From assembly GCA_963665295.1 (NCBI GenBank), contig OY762209.1:640001-704000 (forward strand): a stretch of 64,000 bases of DNA. Direction: 5' to 3'. Below are positions 32,856-43,163 of the stretch, one piece after another. The DNA is from Syntrophorhabdaceae bacterium (GTDB lineage Bacteria > Desulfobacterota > Syntrophorhabdia > Syntrophorhabdales > Syntrophorhabdaceae). The notes under the pieces are model-generated. The model did no database searches. It worked only from the letters and a program-made list of their open reading frames with translations, and was not told the DNA's origin. Numbering within the stretch: position 1 is the stretch's first letter; every line of letters starts with the position of its first letter. The position numbers and the translations under genes are program-made.

Positions 32856-33318
32856 AACCCCCTTAAGGTTCCTTTTAGACAATATAGACGAATACTCTAT
32901 GAAATCTGAATACGGCTGTTATCCGTGCTCACACAAATCCGATAGTAATCAACCAAAGGAGTGAGCACGTTTCTGAATGTATCATTGTTATTATACAAGA
33001 GATTTTCTGAATTACAATCAAAATCTAGAAGGGTTAGTCGAAAGATTCCAAATACTTCCTGTTCCGTCACTTGCAATCATAGGTTATCCATGGCGCCAAA
33101 AGGCACCTCTGAACTTCTCATAATAGTCGATACCACATCTATTGGTCTACTAAAAGGGTCCTAAGCGGCATAATTGACTGTCTTTCTTCATATCCAAATC
33201 CCTTTATCATTAAATCAGTTTCTAAAAAATTCAAGGAGGGAAAATCATGGGGATAACGATTCGCTACAAGGGAAAGGCAAAAAGCATTGAAGCGATCGAC
33301 AGCCTGATCGGGGAACCT

Positions 33319-33505
33319 GTAACAGTTTAGTCCTCCACCTCCGACCAACTCATCAACTTGAATTGCGATACAGAGCCCTCCGTGCGGTCTTCATGTCGGA
33401 AGTGAGAAGTATCTCCAGGAACTCCCTCGGCTTATGTCCCTGTCTCAAGGAGGTAAGCACAAGGCTCGGCAGAATGCTGTGGGTTCTCAATCCTTTTTCC
33501 GAGCG
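33319..33505 (-). mobile_element. IS66-family right-end remnant
   Basis: RSEKGLRTHSILPSLVLTSLRQGHKPREFLEILL..* then a terminus reading GTAACAG on the + strand at 33319. Confidence 0.6.
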
Positions 33506-33520
33506 GAAGGAACATAGGGG

Positions 33521-33836
33521 TCACCCATTAAAGGGCCCCTGTCAAGAGATAATATTCCCCCTCACCCATTAAAGGGCCCCTGTCAAGAGGCAATATTCCC
33601 CCGCAGCAAAAAACTAAGCATTTTTTGCAGGGTCTAATACGCCAACACCGGTACGTCGCTCCTTGACCCCTGTCTTCTGCGTCTGCTTTTTCTTCTCTTT
33701 CTCGGTTCGCATCTCTGACCTGCACCAGTCACCCATCGGGATTAAAGGTCTCTTATGGACCTCGTGTCTAATGACCCAGAAAATCGTCAGTTCCCTACCG
33801 TGTCCAATGTGTGGTTCTCAGCACCTATGGTTATAA
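33521..33836 (+). repeat. Copy 1 of ~275-bp direct repeat, preceded by a 41-bp tandem duplication of its start
   Basis: 33562-33836 matches 38808-39082; 33521-33561 and 33562-33602 are near-identical 41-mers. Confidence 0.92.
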
Positions 33837-33980
33837 GCCAACCCCTATGTAGGCTCACGGCACGGGCAGATCAGGTTCGCCAGGAGTTTTTCCCTTGGCT
33901 AAAGTTTTAGACGGGATAGGCCTCCCAATCAGCCCTCAAGGTTATAAGCCAACCCCTTTACCGGTTCCGCCTTCCCGCCG
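33740..33980 (-). ncRNA. Putative IS110 bridge/seek RNA (boundaries approximate)
   Basis: Two stem-loops sharing an 18-bp repeat (33829-33846, 33940-33957), each followed by an 8-mer matching a junction (AGGGCTGA, GGTGCTGA). Confidence 0.6.
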
Positions 33981-34205
33981 AATAGTTTCATTTCATCATA
34001 GACAACCTGGTCTCGTAAGATATGATATGATGCCCGCGCCAGTTTATTACTGATTGCCTTTATGGCCACTATCTTATTGGTCCTGGCCATTTTCTTCTGA
34101 TAATACCGTTGTACTACGGGATAATATCTCTTCGCAAAGTGAGTTAGGATGGATATAGTGGACACCATATGCGGTACAATATGGATACATAACGGAGGTG
34201 TCCGA

Positions 34206-34514
34206 GTGGCAAAGATTCCCAGAGGAGTGTTTACAAAAGAGTTCAAAGAGGAAGCGGTAAGAATGGTGACGGAGGGCGGTCTCGGCATACCTGAGGTAGG
34301 CAGAAGACTGTCACTTGCGAAGTCAACCCTCGCTCGGTGGGTAGCCCAGGCAAAAAGGGGCGGCCTTGTGGTAACGCGAGGTCAGGCGACGGACCAGGAC
34401 ATGGAAGTGGCCCGCCTGAAGCGTGAGATAGCTGAGCTCAAGATGGAGCGCGATATTTTAAAAAACGCGACCGCGTACTTTGCCAGAGAGTCGCTCAAAG
34501 GTACGCGATCGTGA
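34206..34514 (+). CDS. IS3 OrfA (HTH plus leucine zipper)
   Basis: FTKEFKEEAV, TLARWV, ERDILKNATAYFA; A6C slippery run near 34460. Confidence 0.9.
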   Translation: MAKIPRGVFTKEFKEEAVRMVTEGGLGIPEVGRRLSLAKSTLARWVAQAKRGGLVVTRGQATDQDMEVARLKREIAELKMERDILKNATAYFARESLKGTRS

Positions 34515-35371
34515 AAATCCTGCGACTCAAATATCCCCTTGCCCTTCTCTGTCAGGTACTCGAAGTATCTCGAAGCGGTTACTATGCATGGTTTAACCGC
34601 CCGCTTTCGCGACGCGCCCAGGAGGAAGAACGGCTGGAGATAGAGATAAAAGCTGCTCACAAAAGAACCCGGAAGACCTGCGGTCCCGAGAGACTGCAAA
34701 AGGATCTTGCCGGGCATGGCGTAAAGGTGGGCATCTCAAGGATCAGACGGATAAGGAAGAGGCTCGGTATACGGTGTAAACAAGTGAAGAAGTACAAAAC
34801 CACCACAGACTCGAATCATTCGCTCCCCGTGGCGGAGAACATCCTTGATCAGGATTTTACCGTGGAGGCTCCCGACGAGGTGTGGGTCAGCGATATCACC
34901 TACATCCCTACCGATGAGGGCTGGCTCTACTGTGCCGCCCACAAGGACCTTTTTACCGGGGAGATCGTGGGCTACGCCCTGGGGGCGAGAATGACCAGGG
35001 AGCTTGTGCTTAGGTCTCTCATAAGAGCAGTGGCAGTAAGAAAGCCACCGAAAGGCCTGATCCACCACTCGGATCGGGGAAGCCAGTACTGCTCTACTGA
35101 ATATCAGAGACTACTCCTGCAGTTCGGCATGAAAGCTTCAATGAGCAGAAGGGGCAACTGCTACGACAACGCGCCCATGGAAAGCTTCTGGGGTACGTTG
35201 AAAAATGAGCTTATCCATCACCGTAATTACCATACGAGGGATGAGGCGACCGGGGAGATTACCGAGTATATAGAAGTCTTCTATAACCGGGAGAGGCGCC
35301 AGAAACGGCTCGACTATTTATCTCCTGCGGCATACGCAAGAAGATACTATGCCCAGAAAAGGGCGGCGTGA
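34511..35371 (+). CDS. IS3 OrfB DDE transposase
   Basis: WVSDITY, HSDRGSQY, CYDNAPMESFWGTLKNE. Confidence 0.95.
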   Translation: MKILRLKYPLALLCQVLEVSRSGYYAWFNRPLSRRAQEEERLEIEIKAAHKRTRKTCGPERLQKDLAGHGVKVGISRIRRIRKRLGIRCKQVKKYKTTTDSNHSLPVAENILDQDFTVEAPDEVWVSDITYIPTDEGWLYCAAHKDLFTGEIVGYALGARMTRELVLRSLIRAVAVRKPPKGLIHHSDRGSQYCSTEYQRLLLQFGMKASMSRRGNCYDNAPMESFWGTLKNELIHHRNYHTRDEATGEITEYIEVFYNRERRQKRLDYLSPAAYARRYYAQKRAA

Positions 35372-36354
35372 GAGACATTATTGGTGTCCACTATTGACAT
35401 CGGGGGTCAAAGTTCGCTGCTTCTATATATGCCCAGGAGAGATACCTGTTCCCGTTTCTCCTGTTGCCCTCCCCCTTGTTCTTCCCGTTTGAAGAGCGAA
35501 CACTTCTTACACATCGGCAATAGGAGGAGTAGTCTCCCACCCGGGGAAAGCGCGTGATAGATCCTGCCTCCAGCATGACGGTGAGGCCGAGGATATCTCC
35601 GATGCCGGGCAGGGTGAGGAGGCCTTTGAATTCATCCCTGAGTTTCGCCTCTGCAAGGATCACCCCTTCGATGCGGTCTATCTCTTTGGTGAGCTCACGC
35701 ATAATCGTAACGCTTGCGTTGACGGAGAGAAACAGATGTTCCTCCGGGAAGAGCTTTCTTACCTCAACCTCATCAAACTTCTTTACCACATCTCCCCTCA
35801 CGATAATTCCCAAACTCCGGCTTATGATGTTCTTGATGCTCAGGATATGGGAAGATCGATGACGCACCAGATGCAACCGTTTTCTCAGGAGATCCCGGAT
35901 GGGCCTCTCTTCCCTGGGATAAATATACCCTGTAGGCAATATCCCCAACCGTAAGAGATTGGCAAGCCAGAGGGCGCTTCTCTTATCGTCTATGTTCTTG
36001 AGTCCCTCATATTGTTTGATGGCTGCGGGATTGGCGAGACGCACCGTATATCCATTCTCCATGAGCCCATCCACGAACCAGTACCAGTTGAAGGTAGACT
36101 CCACCGCGATCGCGGACACCTCTTTCCTGAACGGGTCCAATGTGCCAAGAACAGTCGGGAGATCATTATTCAGCTTCTTCTGAAAGATGACCTTATTTGC
36201 CTCGTCAACGATACCTAGATAATTATTGTTTGAATGCAAATCTACTCCTACGTATAATGTCATTGGGCACCTCCTCATGAGTGTTTTGGTCAACCTCAAC
36301 ATAGTACAGCAAACCGTTGACTATGCGTAGGTGGTGCCCTTTAGATGATTATCA

Positions 36355-36459
36355 GCCCTTGACACGGGACAACAGGGCTGGCCCTTGGAGTAAAAGCATG
36401 TATTTCTAATCAGTTGCATCATCGCCAGAGCGTTTTGTCCTGTGTCAAGGGCAGACCCC
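36355..36459. repeat. REP/MITE-like element, copy A (left arm is the IS110 insertion site)
   Basis: Near-identical to 43052-43157; ends GTGTCAAGGGCAGACCCC. Confidence 0.85.
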
Positions 36460-36832
36460 CATGTCCCACTACTTTCCTGAGTTCCCGAAACAATGTAACG
36501 AGGAATTGAGATAAGTATCTAATAATGCAAGGCTAAAATGCACTTTTGCTTTCATAAATCATCGTTACGATGCCTACTGTTATAACGATGATTGGGAGAC
36601 GTCGTATGCTGGGCTATCCTTTATTAGGCCATTTAAAGAGACTGTAATTATAGATGCATACGGCCTGACCTCCCTTTGATGGGAGGAAAGACCCGCATGC
36701 ATCGTTACAATAACACGGGAACTCAGGTACTTTCGCATCGCCCATAGTCAGCTCGAATTTCGATACAACGCCGCCTGTAGGAACACTAAGGGGATGTTGG
36801 TTCAAAGGGAAAACTTATCAGATGAACAACGA

Positions 36833-36870
36833 AGATCAATTGCTACCTTGAATCGCACGTAAGTTCCCTT
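36833..36870 (+). repeat. 38-bp dispersed repeat (second copy 42451-42488)
   Basis: agatcaaYtgYtaccttgaatYgcaSgtaagttccctt, 4 mismatches. Confidence 0.7.
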
Positions 36871-37024
36871 CGAACCAACATCCCCTGCGTCAGTGACAGC
36901 TTCTAGGAAGAGGGGGCTAAAGAATTGGGGAAACTTCAGGGAGGTTGGCATTGACAATAGATACCTGTGGGGATAGAATTTTAGAAAGCGGAGTATTTTG
37001 CCAGGCAGGCAGGAAAGGGGGACT

Positions 37025-38807: not shown

Positions 38808-39082
38808 TCACCCATTAAAGGGCCCCTGTCAAGAGGCAATATTCCCCCGCAGCAAAAAACTAAGCATTTTTTGCAGGGTCTAATACGCCAACACCGGTAC
38901 GTCGCTCCTTGACCCCTGTCTTCTGCGTCTGCTTTTTCTTCTCTTTCTCGGTTCGCATCTCTGACCTGCACCAGTCACCCATCGGGATTAAAGGTCTCTT
39001 ATGGACCTCGTGTCTAATGACCCAGAAAATCGTCAGTTCCCTACCGTGTCCAATGTGTGGTTCTCAGCACCTATGGTTATAA
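38808..39082 (+). repeat. Copy 2 of ~275-bp direct repeat, including a truncated IS110 3' end
   Basis: Matches 33562-33836; cut exactly at the IS1634 left IR. Confidence 0.92.
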
Positions 39083-40824
39083 CCTGACTTCCCGCCCCAT
39101 TATAACGAGGAAACCCATCTAACCCATTAATAAACATAAGATTAAGTACGATTTCCCTTGCATTTGGCATCGTTACAAGTTATAGTGTTGTAACGATGAA
39201 GGAGGGAATGCATGGCGATCGTCTATCAGACCAATAAGAAGACCGGGGTCAGGTATGCCTATGAATCGGTCTCATACTGGGATAAGGAGAGGAGGCAGTC
39301 CAGGGCAAAGCGTGTGTGCATCGGAAGGGTAGACGAAGAGACCGGGGAAATCATTCCCACCAGGAAAAAGAAGGTGGGGCCAAAGACGATCAAGCCTGGC
39401 CCGGTGCCCATCACCCGGACTGCCCGGTTGTTCTATGGGGCCACCTACCTCTTCGACTGTATCGGGGAAGAGATAGGGGTGACAAAGGATTTGAGGACCT
39501 GTTTCCCCGATAGCTATCGTAAGATCCTCTCCCTCGCCTATTACCTCATATTGGAGGACAAGAACCCCTTGAGCCGCTTCCCCCGGTGGGCTCACGTTCA
39601 TTGGCATCCACATGGGGAAGTCATCTCCTCCCAGAGGAGTAGCGACCTCTTTGCCGCGATCACCGAGGAAGGAAGACAGCGGTTCTTTACCCTCCAGGGG
39701 AAGCGCCGGGTAGAGAAGGAATATCTCGCCTATGACAGCACGTCCGTGAGCAGCTACTCCCAGTGCCTGCGGCAGGTACGCTACGGGAAGAACAAGGACC
39801 ATGAGCACCTTCCCCAGATCAACCTTGCACTCCTCTTCGGACAGCAGTCACGCCTGCCCTTCTATTACCGGAAGCTCCCGGGTAACATCCCCGATGTGAA
39901 GACATTGAGGAAATTGCTCAGCGACATGAACGCCCTGGGTTATGAGAAGATCAAGGTAGTCCTGGACCGGGGCTTCTACAGTGCGGCCAACATCAACGAC
40001 ATGTATAAGCATCATATGAAGTTCCTGATCGCCGCAAGGCTGCCCCTTAGGTTTGTCGAGACGCACCTTGACCCCGTCAGGGAGAAGATGCGGAGCTTCA
40101 CCCATTACAGTAAGCCCCACGGGCTCTATGCCTATTCTTTGCCGATCGCCTGGGACTATGTGCAGGATCGGCCCTACAAAGGAGACACCCTCGCGGAGGA
40201 CCGCCGGATGTATCTTCATCTGTATTTCTCTCCGGAGAGAGCCTTAGAGGATGAACTGGCCTTCACCACCCGTCTCTCTGATTGGCAGGAAGAGCTGGAA
40301 CGCGGTACTCGCTATCCGGATCATGAGAAATACTATGCGAAATACTTCGAGGTGAAGAGTACGCCGGTCCGGGGGACAAAAGTGGTTGCTAAAGAAGAGG
40401 TTCTCATAGAGGCGAAACGCAATTACGGATACTTTGCCCTCCTAAGCAACGAGATAAAGGACCCCCTTGACGCGCTCACCATTTACCGGAACAAGGACCT
40501 GGTGGAGAAGGCCTTCGAGAATCTTAAAGAACGACTGAACGTACGCAGGCTTGCCGTCTCCTCCGAGCAGAGTCTCGACGGCAAGCTCTTTGTCCAGTTC
40601 ATCGCCCTTATCTTCTTATCTCACATCACCAGGAAGATACAGGAGAGCAACCTCTTCAAAGATTACACGCTGCAGGAAGTCCTGGATGAGCTTGATGTCA
40701 TCGAATGTTACGAAGTACCGGGGCAGCGTCTCATGGCGGGGGAGATGACGAAGAAACAGATGGAGCTTTATGCGAGGCTGGGGGTTATGGCGCCGGGCTC
40801 GTTACAATAGGGCGGGAAGTCAGG
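39083..40824 (+). mobile_element. IS1634-family insertion sequence
   Basis: Perfect 15-bp terminal IR CCTGACTTCCCGCCC; no target duplication visible. Confidence 0.88.
39212..40810 (+). CDS. IS1634-family DDE transposase
   Basis: YDSTS, YGKNKD, PQINL, LDRGFYS, YRNKD.VEKAF..LK. Confidence 0.9.
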   Translation: MAIVYQTNKKTGVRYAYESVSYWDKERRQSRAKRVCIGRVDEETGEIIPTRKKKVGPKTIKPGPVPITRTARLFYGATYLFDCIGEEIGVTKDLRTCFPDSYRKILSLAYYLILEDKNPLSRFPRWAHVHWHPHGEVISSQRSSDLFAAITEEGRQRFFTLQGKRRVEKEYLAYDSTSVSSYSQCLRQVRYGKNKDHEHLPQINLALLFGQQSRLPFYYRKLPGNIPDVKTLRKLLSDMNALGYEKIKVVLDRGFYSAANINDMYKHHMKFLIAARLPLRFVETHLDPVREKMRSFTHYSKPHGLYAYSLPIAWDYVQDRPYKGDTLAEDRRMYLHLYFSPERALEDELAFTTRLSDWQEELERGTRYPDHEKYYAKYFEVKSTPVRGTKVVAKEEVLIEAKRNYGYFALLSNEIKDPLDALTIYRNKDLVEKAFENLKERLNVRRLAVSSEQSLDGKLFVQFIALIFLSHITRKIQESNLFKDYTLQEVLDELDVIECYEVPGQRLMAGEMTKKQMELYARLGVMAPGSLQ

Positions 40825-43044: not shown

Positions 43045-43157
43045 GGGGTCTGCCCCTGACACGGGATAACAGGGCTGGCCCTTGGAGTAAAAGCACGTAT
43101 TTTTAATCAGTTGCATCATCGTCAGAGTGTTTTTGTCCTGTGTCAAGGGCAGACCCC
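43045..43157. repeat. REP/MITE-like element, copy B with intact inverted termini
   Basis: GGGGTCTGCCCCTGACAC ... GTGTCAAGGGCAGACCCC. Confidence 0.85.
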
Positions 43158-43163
43158 TATTCG

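What the first reader, a model, noticed from the sequence alone, without database searches (positions are those of the whole stretch)
33722..36359. IS110 3' non-coding region carries 8-mers matching its own target and circle junction (bridge-RNA signature)
Seen, minus strand: two stem-loops each contain AGGGGTTGGCTTATAACC. Three nt later, loop 1 reads AGGGCTGA (33929-33936), identical to the left flank junction (36352-36359). Loop 2 reads GGTGCTGA (33818-33825), which is the sequence formed by joining the right end (CTGGTGC) to the left end (TGATAATC). GC is present at both junctions. Known: IS110/IS1111 recombinases use bispecific RNAs with target- and donor-binding loops. Inference: a readable, reprogrammable guide RNA that targets the REP-like arm CTGCCCTTGACAC. 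The shared TGA may be structural, so the true guides could be shorter.
Basis: partly seen in the sequence, partly recalled or inferred. Interest (0 to 1): 0.75.

Follow-up and report, generated by a model that had tools for sequence, protein, structure and literature searches.

The report
Broken IS1111-type element with guide RNA

Summary
The element is an IS110-family, IS1111-type insertion sequence on the minus strand. It runs from 36354 to 33521, not to 33722. Its transposase gene is split by an IS3 element (34140-35409).

It sits in a REP-like palindrome at GTCAAGGGC-TGA-CCCC, with TGA at both junctions. An uninterrupted paralogue, a second remnant copy and homologues all place the right end at ...TTGACAGGGGCCCTTTAATGGG-TGA. 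Joined to the left end, that sequence would form a TTGACA-17 nt-GATAAT promoter.

Loop 1 is a real target guide. In 49 non-redundant RNA/flank pairs, the 5 nt before its conserved TGATTGG match the 5 nt of left flank at 82-94% per position, against 42-86% when partners are shuffled (0 of 2000 shuffles reach the observed total).

Loop 2 as circle junction is refuted. CTGGTGC is a conserved internal motif next to a covarying helix, and it does not covary with loop 2. The best donor-loop candidate is a multiloop at 33792-33725 (GATGGG-TGA-C matches the right end), but it could not be tested because the ends do not vary.

This is a new member of a known kind, and it is inactive in this genome. No RNA data were available.

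The parts
36355..36460 (-). Left part of the REP-like palindrome that serves as target. The left arm is GGGGGTCTGCCCTTGACACAGGAC (36460-36437). The right arm runs up to the insertion point, ...GTGTCAAGGGC (ends at 36355).
   Evidence: Inverted repeat I3. 92% identical to the uninterrupted paralogue at 43160-43049. Coordinates.
36352..36354 (-). TGA core at the left junction (LT-TGA-LE).
   Evidence: The same TGA is present once in the 5 unoccupied sites GTCAAGGGCTGACCCC.
36264..36351 (-). Left end, 88 nt, starting TAATCATC. The subterminal inverted repeat TAAAGGGCACC is at 36343-36333. GA of the core plus TAAT gives the would-be -10 hexamer GATAAT.
   Evidence: Positions 2-7 of the left end read GATAAT in 60 of 60 homologues with a left end.
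35413..36263 (-). Transposase, N-terminal 283 codons (DEDD/RuvC-like domain plus most of the Transposase_20 domain).
   Evidence: Pfam PF01548 and PF02371. 79% identical to residues 1-283 of the intact homologue P0001.
34140..35409 (+). IS3-family element (orfA 34149-34514, orfB 34511-35371) inserted in the transposase gene. TG...CA ends. The 3-bp duplication AAG is at 34137-34139 and 35410-35412.
   Evidence: Pfam HTH_Tnp_1 and rve. Inverted repeat I5. Boundaries. Contigs of public runs break at 34140 and 35409 and show about 3.5-fold depth there.
33929..34138 (-). Transposase, C-terminal 69 codons plus the stop codon TGA (33931-33929).
   Evidence: 77% identical to residues 285-353 of P0001, with no other lesion.
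33910..33979 (-). It consists of the outer stem (33979-33969 with 33921-33910), the 5' side GGAACCGGTAAA+GGGG (33968-33953), the hairpin GGTTGG..AACC, and the 3' side guide AGGGC-TGA-TTGG (33936-33925).
   Evidence: Outer stem: 10 of 10 pairs show compensatory changes. Guide/flank covariation.
33879..33899 (-). Small hairpin between the two RNA domains (GCCAAGG...CCTGGC).
   Evidence: Read from the sequence; its length varies among homologues.
33867..33874 (-). 5' strand (CTGATCTG) of a long-range helix that closes the second RNA domain.
   Evidence: Pairs with 33722-33715. At least 7 of 8 positions pair in 50 of 56 distinct homologues, with compensatory variants, and 0 of 2000 shuffles reach the observed value.
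33793..33866 (-). It is a paralogue of the target-binding module: outer stem 33866-33852 with 33802-33793, 5' side TACATA+GGGG, and 3' side ATAGGTGC-TGA (33828-33818). Its role is unresolved.
   Evidence: Outer stem: 9 of 12 pairs show compensatory changes. No covariation with the right end (227 of 2000 shuffles reach it). Weaker tracking of the left flank. Table.
33725..33792 (-). Candidate donor-binding multiloop. The 5' strand is AACTGACGATTTTCT (33792-33778), followed by two hairpins (33777-33766 and 33763-33745) and the 3' strand GATGGG-TGA-CTGG (33737-33725).
   Evidence: The 3' strand shares at least 7 nt exactly with the right end plus flank in 55 of 63 homologues. The 5' strand is partly complementary to the left end AATCAT, with at least 6 nt in 17 of 60. 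Both sides are invariant, so covariation cannot be tested.
33715..33722 (-). 3' strand (CAGGTCAG) of the long-range helix.
33603..33714 (-). Conserved tail of the 3' region, function unknown. It includes the A/T-rich hairpin GCAAAAAA..TTTTTTGC (33628-33606).
   Evidence: Homology continues here in the homologues. Coordinates.
33521..33602 (-). Right end, present as two tandem 41-nt units (33602-33562 and 33561-33521). Each carries TTGACA, the subterminal repeat GGGGCCCTTTA and the terminal ATGGG-TGA. The last TGA is at 33523-33521, and TTGACA of the terminal unit is at 33545-33540.
   Evidence: The remnant copy 2 and the homologues have a single unit. The flank CCCCTATG resumes the palindrome.
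33509..33520 (-). Right flank CCCCTATGTTCC, which is the rest of the palindrome's right arm.
   Evidence: Matches the paralogue ...GGGGCAGACCCCTATGTTCC.
38808..39082 (-). Remnant of a second copy: the last 275 nt of the element, 100% identical to 33562-33836. Its own right junction reads ...GGGTGA|CCCCTAT. It is cut at 39082/39083 by another insertion sequence.
43049..43160 (-). Uninterrupted paralogue of the target palindrome (...GTGTCAGGGGCAGACCCCTATGTTCC), used here as the 'empty site'.

Best explanation
Window 36354..33521 (minus strand) is one copy of an IS110-family insertion sequence of the IS1111 type. It is about 1.56 kb once the IS3 insertion is discounted.

Shown here:
- It encodes a DEDD transposase, now split by an IS3 element.
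- It has subterminal inverted repeats and a 408-nt region downstream of the stop codon.
- It sits in a REP-like palindrome at AGGGC-TGA-CCCC, with the TGA present at both junctions.
- The region from about 33980 to 33715 has a conserved, covarying RNA-type secondary structure.
- In the first internal loop of that structure, the 5 nt before a constant TGATTGG have the same sequence as the 5 nt of left flank, and they change with it across homologues.

Inferred from the published IS1111 seekRNA and IS621 bridge RNA work:
- The transposase binds this RNA.
- The 3' side of loop 1 pairs with the bottom strand of the left half-site plus the core.
- The conserved GGGG(+1-3 nt) on the 5' side of loop 1 pairs with the top strand of the right half-site CCCC.
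- A downstream multiloop (GAyGATTTTC ... GATGGG-TGA-C) holds the joined ends of the excised circle.
- Recombination occurs at the TGA/GA core.
- Joining the ends creates a TTGACA-17 nt-GATAAT promoter that drives the transposase gene and the RNA.

This genome holds no intact transposase of the family, so this copy is a fossil.
For: Family: Pfam PF01548 and PF02371. NCBIfam NF033542 'IS110 family RNA-guided transposase', 169.8 bits against a cut-off of 140 for the intact homologue. IS621 transposase is the best solved relative, E = 2e-5.

Ends:
- Uninterrupted paralogue of the palindrome.
- A 275-nt remnant with its own GGGTGA|CCCC junction.
- Homologues L019, L020, L100, L102, L110, L111, L112 and L137 all run on to ...TAATGGGTGA|CCC(C). 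L019 carries an uninterrupted GGTCAAGGGCTGACCCC just downstream.
- Five unoccupied GTCAAGGGCTGACCCC sites in the genome.

Guide:
- Mutual information is highest between flank -1/-2/-3 and the RNA positions just before TGATTGG (1.00, 0.87, 0.61).
- Identity at -5..-1 is 0.90/0.94/0.86/0.82/0.94 against 0.86/0.66/0.49/0.42/0.43 after shuffling, n = 49, with 0 of 2000 shuffles as high.
- An exact match of at least 7 nt to the left junction occurs in 39 of 53.

Structure:
- 95.5% of cells pair, against 81.1% shuffled and 28-44% with partners slid. 20 of 25 pairs show compensatory changes.
- The long-range helix is supported.
- Many G-U pairs are seen. On the opposite strand they would be A-C mismatches (inference), which fits an RNA made from the transposase strand.

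Promoter: TTGACA lies at 33545-33540, with 17 nt to GATAAT once the ends are joined.

Literature:
- In IS1111 seekRNAs the top-strand match lies 5' of the bottom-strand match (PMC11187229, section 9 read).
Against: - No RNA data. The run search listed no holder on record as RNA, so transcription, processing and binding are all inferred.
- No Rfam family matches the region.
- The single-sequence fold of 33975-33700 is no more stable than shuffles (z = +0.79). The structure rests on comparison alone.
- Right-half recognition beyond CCCC is weak: 8 of 2000 shuffles reach it.
- The donor-loop assignment has no covariation support, because the ends and the loop are invariant (667 of 2000). The right-end variant GGGCGA seen in several homologues is not mirrored in the loop, which reads TGGGTGAC in every row shown.
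- Part of the 'guide' signal comes from relatedness among homologues, so the shuffle counts are not probabilities.
- The transposase lacks the usual G--P----SG motif. It reads RCVK----SN where IS621 has GLTP----SG, although the serine is kept (alignment).
Confidence: 0.85

Rival explanations
1. The element ends at CTGGTGC (33722), GC is the junction dinucleotide, and loop 2 (GGTGCTGA) is the donor loop reading the circle junction CTGGTGC+TGATAATC.
For: In the window alone, GGTGC in loop 2 equals GGTGC at 33726-33722.
Against: - Homology with copy 2 and with every homologue examined runs across 33722.
- The empty-site paralogue puts the end at 33521.
- 33722 is the first base of a covarying helix strand.
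- GGTGC at that place is conserved in 57 of 82 RNAs whatever loop 2 reads, and only 1 of those 57 (the window) has GGTGC in loop 2.
- There is no -35 element upstream of 33722, whereas the true end carries TTGACA.
Confidence: 0.02
2. A seekRNA-only model. Only the first module (about 33979-33910) acts as a guide, reading the target and, during excision, the flanks. The ends are recognised by the protein through the subterminal inverted repeats. The internal GATGGGTGAC is then not an RNA guide but something else, for example an alternative internal right end as in the A/B and A'/B' boxes of ISPpu9.
For: - For ISEc11 an 82-nt seekRNA holding only target matches sufficed for movement, and the donor flanks had to be changed along with it (PMC11187229, section 10 read).
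- ISPpu9 moves as modules bounded by repeated end boxes (PMC12288879, abstract and sections 4 and 13 read).
- Here the internal and terminal ATGGGTGAC are direct repeats about 200 nt apart.
- The donor loop has no covariation support.
Against: - In all 82 RNAs with this part, the internal copy is followed by CTGG or CCGG plus three more bases, never by the flank CCCC.
- No solo copy of the 200-nt tail was found in the genome.
- The internal copy has no TTGACA upstream.
- It lies in a multiloop closed by a covarying helix, which is where Durrant et al. place donor-binding nucleotides in IS1111 elements.
Confidence: 0.25
3. The conserved motifs work as DNA, as protein-binding sites or recombination sites, and no guide RNA is involved.
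For: No expression data. The single-sequence fold is not unusual.
Against: - 20 of 25 pairs show compensatory changes, and G-U pairs are frequent on one strand.
- The guide and flank covary in register.
- The family is experimentally RNA-guided (PMC11187229, PMC11208160).
Confidence: 0.03

Closest known systems
IS1111-group elements with a 3' seekRNA (ISEc11, ISPa11, ISKpn4; Siddiquee et al. 2024, PMC11187229)
   Same: DEDD transposase. Long non-coding region downstream of the gene. Subterminal inverted repeats. Site-specific insertion (ISPa11 also inserts into a REP). An internal loop whose 5' side is complementary to the top strand of the target and whose 3' side is complementary to the bottom strand. 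A first module of about 70 nt, similar in size to the 82-96 nt short seekRNAs.
   Different: A different transposase clade: the best solved relative, IS621, matches only at E = 2e-5, and the G--P----SG motif is altered. The variable guide is very short (5 nt) next to a constant TGA core and a constant CCCC. In the window's subclade the guide overlaps the last codons and the stop codon. There is an extra paralogous loop. None of this has been tested experimentally for this clade.
IS621 bridge RNA (Durrant et al. 2024, PMC11208160; Hiraizumi et al. 2024, PMC11208158)
   Same: A two-specificity logic, with a target loop and a donor loop that share a core, and a junction promoter in the excised circle. 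The base after the core is T in the target module (as in the left end) and C in the donor candidate (as in the right flank). This recalls the handshake guides; that parallel is inference only.
   Different: IS621 carries the RNA in its left end, upstream of the gene, with two simple internal loops and a CT core. Here the RNA lies downstream, the order of the strand matches is reversed, the donor candidate is a multiloop, and the core is TGA (or GA).
ISPpu9 of Pseudomonas putida (PMC12288879)
   Same: An IS110-family element inserted in REP sequences, with repeated end-like boxes inside the element.
   Different: ISPpu9 belongs to the IS110 group and lacks subterminal repeats. Its downstream sRNA (Ssr9) is dispensable and moves as its own module. 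No such solo module was found here.

Membership tests
IS110 family (DEDD, RNA-guided transposases) | Transposase with an N-terminal DEDD/RuvC-like domain and a C-terminal Transposase_20 domain | tested here: met
   PF01548 (E = 3e-12) and PF02371 (E = 6e-11) on the N-terminal part. NF033542 at 169.8 bits, above the cut-off of 140, for the intact 78-79% homologue. The window's N-terminal part alone scores 134.8, below the cut-off because it is truncated.
IS110 family (DEDD, RNA-guided transposases) | Conserved catalytic serine in the C-terminal G--P----S(G) motif | tested here: inconclusive
   In the alignment to IS621 a serine aligns with the serine of IS621's ESG. I take that to be S241, the catalytic serine named in PMC11208158; the residue number does not come from the alignment. 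The surrounding motif reads RCVK----SN instead of GLTP----SG.
IS1111 group | Subterminal inverted repeats of 7-17 bp | tested here: met
   Left end TAAAGGGCACC (36343-36333) against right end GGGGCCCTTTA. That is 8 bp perfect in the window, and TAGAGGGCAC/GTGCCCTCTA (10 bp) in L019. The repeats are set back 11 and 8 nt from the ends, counting the TGA.
IS1111 group | The longer non-coding region lies downstream of the transposase gene | tested here: met
   408 nt downstream (33928-33521) against 88 nt upstream (36351-36264).
IS1111 group | Insertion at one specific target sequence | tested here: met
   Copy 1, copy 2 and the closest homologues sit at ...GGGC-TGA-CCCC. There are 5 unoccupied identical sites in the genome.
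seekRNA / bridge RNA | Loop nucleotides that match the target and covary with it across orthologues | tested here: met
   (n = 49-53, 0 of 2000 shuffles). The order of the strand matches is as published for IS1111.
seekRNA / bridge RNA | Conserved secondary structure supported by compensatory changes | tested here: met
seekRNA / bridge RNA | A donor-binding loop that matches and covaries with the element's ends | tested here: inconclusive
GATGGGTGAC matches the right end in 55 of 63, but both are invariant, so no covariation is possible.
seekRNA / bridge RNA | The RNA is made and binds the transposase | not testable with these tools
   No run on record as RNA.
seekRNA / bridge RNA | Match to a curated RNA family model | tested here: not met
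   No Rfam 15 family matches 33000-37000 at E up to 10, apart from two unrelated weak hits. I did not check whether Rfam holds any bridge RNA model at all.

The most novel reading that the evidence does not exclude
The RNA of this clade is a three-loop guide. Besides a target loop and a donor multiloop, it carries a second, paralogous target-type loop (33866-33793) as an arm of the donor multiloop.

The base just before this loop's TG tracks the base just before the core in the target (0.82 against 0.44 after shuffling; G with G in L051, L133, L071 and L167). In the window, its 5' side ACATAGGGGT is complementary to 10 nt of the right flank (ACCCCTATGT, counting the last base of the core), a better match than loop 1 gives.

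The loop could be a dedicated handshake or excision guide that reads the junctions, or a second target specificity. Either would be a new way of wiring a bridge recombinase.
Probability: 0.15. Interest if true: 0.6.

Novelty: new member of a known kind. Interest (0 to 1): 0.3.

Why it matters
RNA-guided IS110/IS1111 recombinases are being developed as genome-editing tools, and natural diversity feeds that work. This clade has hundreds of relatives in public genomes and metagenomes: 256 and 522 stretches confirmed by tblastn. It offers a very legible code: 5 variable nucleotides, a constant TGA core and a constant CCCC. It also has a donor multiloop and an unexplained extra loop.

For this genome the finding is ordinary annotation. 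It is a decayed insertion sequence in a REP-like repeat, nested with three other mobile elements. The case also shows why ends of IS110-family elements should be set from empty sites and other copies, not from matches to the RNA.

Tried and rejected
- Rfam scan of 33000-37000 at E up to 10: only mir-548-like and RAGATH-16-like chance hits elsewhere.
- Single-sequence folds of 33700-33975 and 33500-33975: no more stable than shuffles.
- Run search: no listed holder is on record as RNA.
- Contigs of runs X1, X3, X4 and X6 laid on 33300-36700. They confirm the IS3 boundaries and the repeat depths. The joints (33538>33720, 33549>33715, 33747>36069) have sides under 30 letters, and I could not interpret them.
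- Loop 2 against the right end: no signal (227 of 2000 shuffles).
- Loop 2 5' side against the right flank, family-wide: no signal (272 of 2000).
- Looking for loop 2 matches in either junction: nothing consistent beyond similarity to the left flank.
- A second set of genome copies starting TGATAATCATAT turned out to be a DDE-type element with a 571-aa open frame, so the resemblance to this element's left end is coincidental.
- Earlier findings of the scan near this place: none.
- An ISPpu9-like solo tail module: none found in the genome by blastn.
- I did not search ISfinder (no tool), and I did not see the supplements of Durrant et al. (covariance models, Supplementary Table 5), which may already include this clade.
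Full report
**What is there.** On the minus strand, the window carries a transposase gene with the two Pfam domains of the IS110 family (PF01548 and PF02371). The gene is split. Codons 1-283 lie at 36263-35413 and codons 285-353 plus the stop at 34138-33929. These two pieces are 79% and 77% identical to the matching parts of an intact 353-aa homologue (P0001, from L004/L018) and have no other lesion. Between them sits an IS3-family element on the plus strand (34140-35409). It has TG...CA ends and a 3-bp duplication AAG. Contigs of public runs break at its ends and show about 3.5 times the depth there. NCBIfam names the intact homologue 'IS110 family RNA-guided transposase' (169.8 bits, cut-off 140). 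The nearest solved structure is the IS621 transposase (E = 2e-5).

**Checking the observation.**
- the 18-mer occurs twice (33957-33940 and 33846-33829);
- AGGGCTGA is at 33936-33929 and again at the left junction, 36359-36352;
- GGTGCTGA is at 33825-33818;
- CTGGTGC is at 33728-33722.

Two things differ from the description. First, the TGA of the first 8-mer is the transposase stop codon. Second, 33722 is not the end of the element.

**Where the element ends.** Four independent lines agree.
1. A 112-nt paralogue of the palindrome upstream of the element lies uninterrupted at window 43160-43049. It reads ...GTGTCAGGGGCAGACCCCTATGTTCC. In the finding's locus the same palindrome reads ...GTGTCAAGGGC, then TGATAATC..., and resumes only after ...TTTAATGGGTGA with CCCCTATGTTCC at 33520.
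2. A remnant of a second copy (38808-39082) is 100% identical to 33562-33836, so it runs across 33722. It ends ...GGGTGA|CCCCTAT.
3. Where the contig allows, all finish ...TCTCTTGACAGGG(T)GCCCT(C/T)TAATGGGTGA followed by CCC(C). L019 has an intact GGTCAAGGGCTGACCCC next door.
4. The genome holds five unoccupied GTCAAGGGCTGACCCC sites.

The target is therefore AGGGC-TGA-CCCC in the right arm of a REP-like palindrome. TGA stands at both junctions, and the element spans 36354-33521. In this copy the last 41 nt are duplicated in tandem (33602-33562 and 33561-33521). Copy 2 and the homologues have one unit.

The left end (TAAAGGGCACC) and the right end (GGGGCCCTTTA) carry subterminal inverted repeats. 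The right end also carries TTGACA (33545-33540). Joining the ends over one TGA would leave 17 nt to GATAAT, which is the junction promoter known for this family (PMC12288879, section 4; PMC13604230, passages). No comparable promoter lies upstream of the gene within the left end.

**The RNA.** I collected 160 related loci. Of these, 97 (with the window) had the conserved anchor, giving 85 distinct 3' regions. An alignment of 63 full-length ones (A2) supports three structural features:
- a stem closing the first module (10 of 10 pairs with compensatory changes);
- a stem closing the second module (9 of 12);
- a small hairpin.

Overall 95.5% of cells pair, against 81.1% after shuffling and 28-44% with partners slid, and 20 of 25 pairs show changes on both sides. 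A further 8-bp long-range helix joins CTGATCTG (33874-33867) to CAGGTCAG (33722-33715). It pairs at 7 or more of 8 positions in 50 of 56 distinct sequences, with variants such as CTATTTCG/CGGAATAG, and no shuffle of 2000 reaches that. The structured RNA therefore runs at least from about 33980 to 33715. The single-sequence folds alone are unremarkable, and no Rfam family matches.

**Loop 1 is a target guide.**
- The strongest mutual information between any flank position and any RNA column is between flank -1, -2, -3 and the three bases just before the conserved TGATTGG (1.00, 0.87, 0.61), always as identity.
- In 49 non-redundant RNA/flank pairs, positions -5 to -1 agree at 0.90, 0.94, 0.86, 0.82 and 0.94. 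Shuffled partners give 0.86, 0.66, 0.49, 0.42 and 0.43, and 0 of 2000 shuffles reach the observed total.
- Examples: GGGC with GGGC, GACC with GACC, AGTC with AGTC, GATG with GATG, GGTT with GGTT, CACC with CACC.
- 39 of 53 share 7 or more contiguous bases with their own left junction.
- The 5' side of the loop ends in a conserved GGGG that is complementary to the nearly constant CCCC of the right flank. One to three further bases track the flank weakly (8 of 2000 shuffles).

The order (top-strand match 5', bottom-strand match 3') is the one published for IS1111 seekRNAs (PMC11187229, section 9). These sequences are related to one another, so the shuffle counts overstate independence. The many different guide/flank pairs are the real argument.

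**Loop 2 is not a circle-junction guide.** The seven RNAs with GGTGC in loop 2 read GGTGC (the window only), GGAAC (4), GGAGC (1) and GGTGT (1) at that place. Loop 2 shows no relation to the true right end (227 of 2000).

It does follow the left flank more than shuffles do, chiefly at the base before TG (0.82 against 0.44; 0 of 2000). In most of the family, however, it stays AAGAT(T/C) while loop 1 and the target change. Its role is open. In the window its 5' side, ACATAGGGGT, is complementary to 10 nt of the right flank, counting the last base of the core. This was noticed after the fact and is not seen family-wide (272 of 2000).

**Donor recognition.** Inside the domain closed by the long-range helix, after the loop 2 arm, lies a multiloop. 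It consists of AACTGACGATTTTCT, two hairpins, then GATGGG-TGA-CTGG (33792-33725). The 3' strand has the same sequence as the right end plus core plus the first flank base (7 or more nt in 55 of 63). The 5' strand is partly complementary to the left end AATCAT (6 or more nt in 17 of 60). The layout parallels loop 1 (GGAACC...TGATTGG against GGAACyGA...TGACTGG). It also fits the remark that in many IS1111 orthologues the donor-binding nucleotides sit in a multi-loop (PMC11208160, passage).

Because the ends and these strands never vary together, there is no covariation test. The right-end variant GGGCGA is not mirrored in the loop. I therefore rate this assignment at about even odds. The alternative is that the ends are read by the protein through the subterminal repeats, as the 82-nt seekRNA result for ISEc11 suggests (PMC11187229, section 10).

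**State of the element in this genome.** There is one full-length copy broken by IS3, one 275-nt right-end remnant cut by another insertion sequence (a DDE transposase at 39212-40810), and one internal transposase fragment outside the window (genome 818737-819402). I found no intact transposase of this family in the genome with this query. The guide is therefore readable but idle. Five perfect targets remain unoccupied.

**Comparison and verdict.** This works like, and passes the testable membership criteria of, the IS1111 group of the IS110 family with a 3' seekRNA/bridge RNA. The criteria met are the DEDD transposase, subterminal repeats, downstream non-coding region, site-specific insertion, covarying guide and covarying structure. 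Untested or inconclusive are RNA production, the donor loop, and the altered serine motif.

The right end, the GC junction and the donor reading of loop 2 are wrong. This is a new member of a known kind. The interest is modest and comes mainly from the clean 5-nt code and the unexplained extra loop.

**Papers and how much of each I saw.**
- PMC11187229: abstract and sections 6, 8, 9, 10 and 13.
- PMC11208160, PMC11208158 and PMC13604230: passages only.
- PMC12288879: abstract and sections 4 and 13.
- PMC13626964 and 10.1101/2025.10.25.684509: abstracts only.
- No supplements were seen.

Noticed in passing
window 34140-35409: A complete IS3-family element (orfA/orfB with overlapping frames, TG..CA ends, 3-bp duplication AAG). 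It is multi-copy, judged by about 3.5-fold contig depth in public runs.
   Followed up: partly
window 39083-40810 and 36476-36727: A DDE transposase gene (532 aa, PF01609) begins just beyond the point where the second copy's right-end remnant is cut. Its 30-nt terminal sequence (39083-39112) is 80% like 36476-36505. That stretch forms a 31-nt inverted repeat with 36697-36727 (77% complementary), which suggests a 252-bp miniature derivative beside the target palindrome.
   Followed up: partly
window 33521-33602; also L151 and L058: The last 41 nt of the element (the would-be -35, the subterminal repeat and the terminal ATGGGTGA) are duplicated in tandem, with two substitutions. Two homologues also show tandem partial right ends. 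Repeated right ends may be a recurrent by-product of the recombinase.
   Followed up: no
window 36789-36886: A nearly perfect 23-bp inverted repeat with a 52-nt loop. It scores as 'mir-548' in Rfam (33 bits, far below the gathering score of 90). It is probably another repeat or miniature-element hairpin, not a microRNA.
   Followed up: no
genome C1:192984, 818622, 818709, 1118878, 2371390: Five unoccupied perfect target sites, GTCAAGGGCTGACCCC. Two of them are the two arms of one palindrome next to a transposase fragment (818737-819402), which is itself cut on both sides.
   Followed up: partly
window 33929-33979 and L018/L019/L020: In the window's subclade the transposase frame runs on through the first RNA stem and the target guide and stops at the core TGA (353 aa). 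In other clade members the frame stops before the RNA (the tblastn match to P0001 ends near residue 337-340). Retargeting would therefore change the last residues of the protein.
   Followed up: no
window 33538-33720 and 33747-36069: Low-depth contigs of runs X1 and X3 join these places (skips of 181, 165 and 2321 nt) with short sides of 22-28 letters. They may be repeats or other organisms, and are not interpreted.
   Followed up: no
window 33846-33837: The 5' side of the loop 2 arm, ACATAGGGGT, is complementary to 10 nt spanning the last core base and the right flank (ACCCCTATGT). That is a better match than loop 1's own 5' side. It is not seen in homologues.
   Followed up: partly
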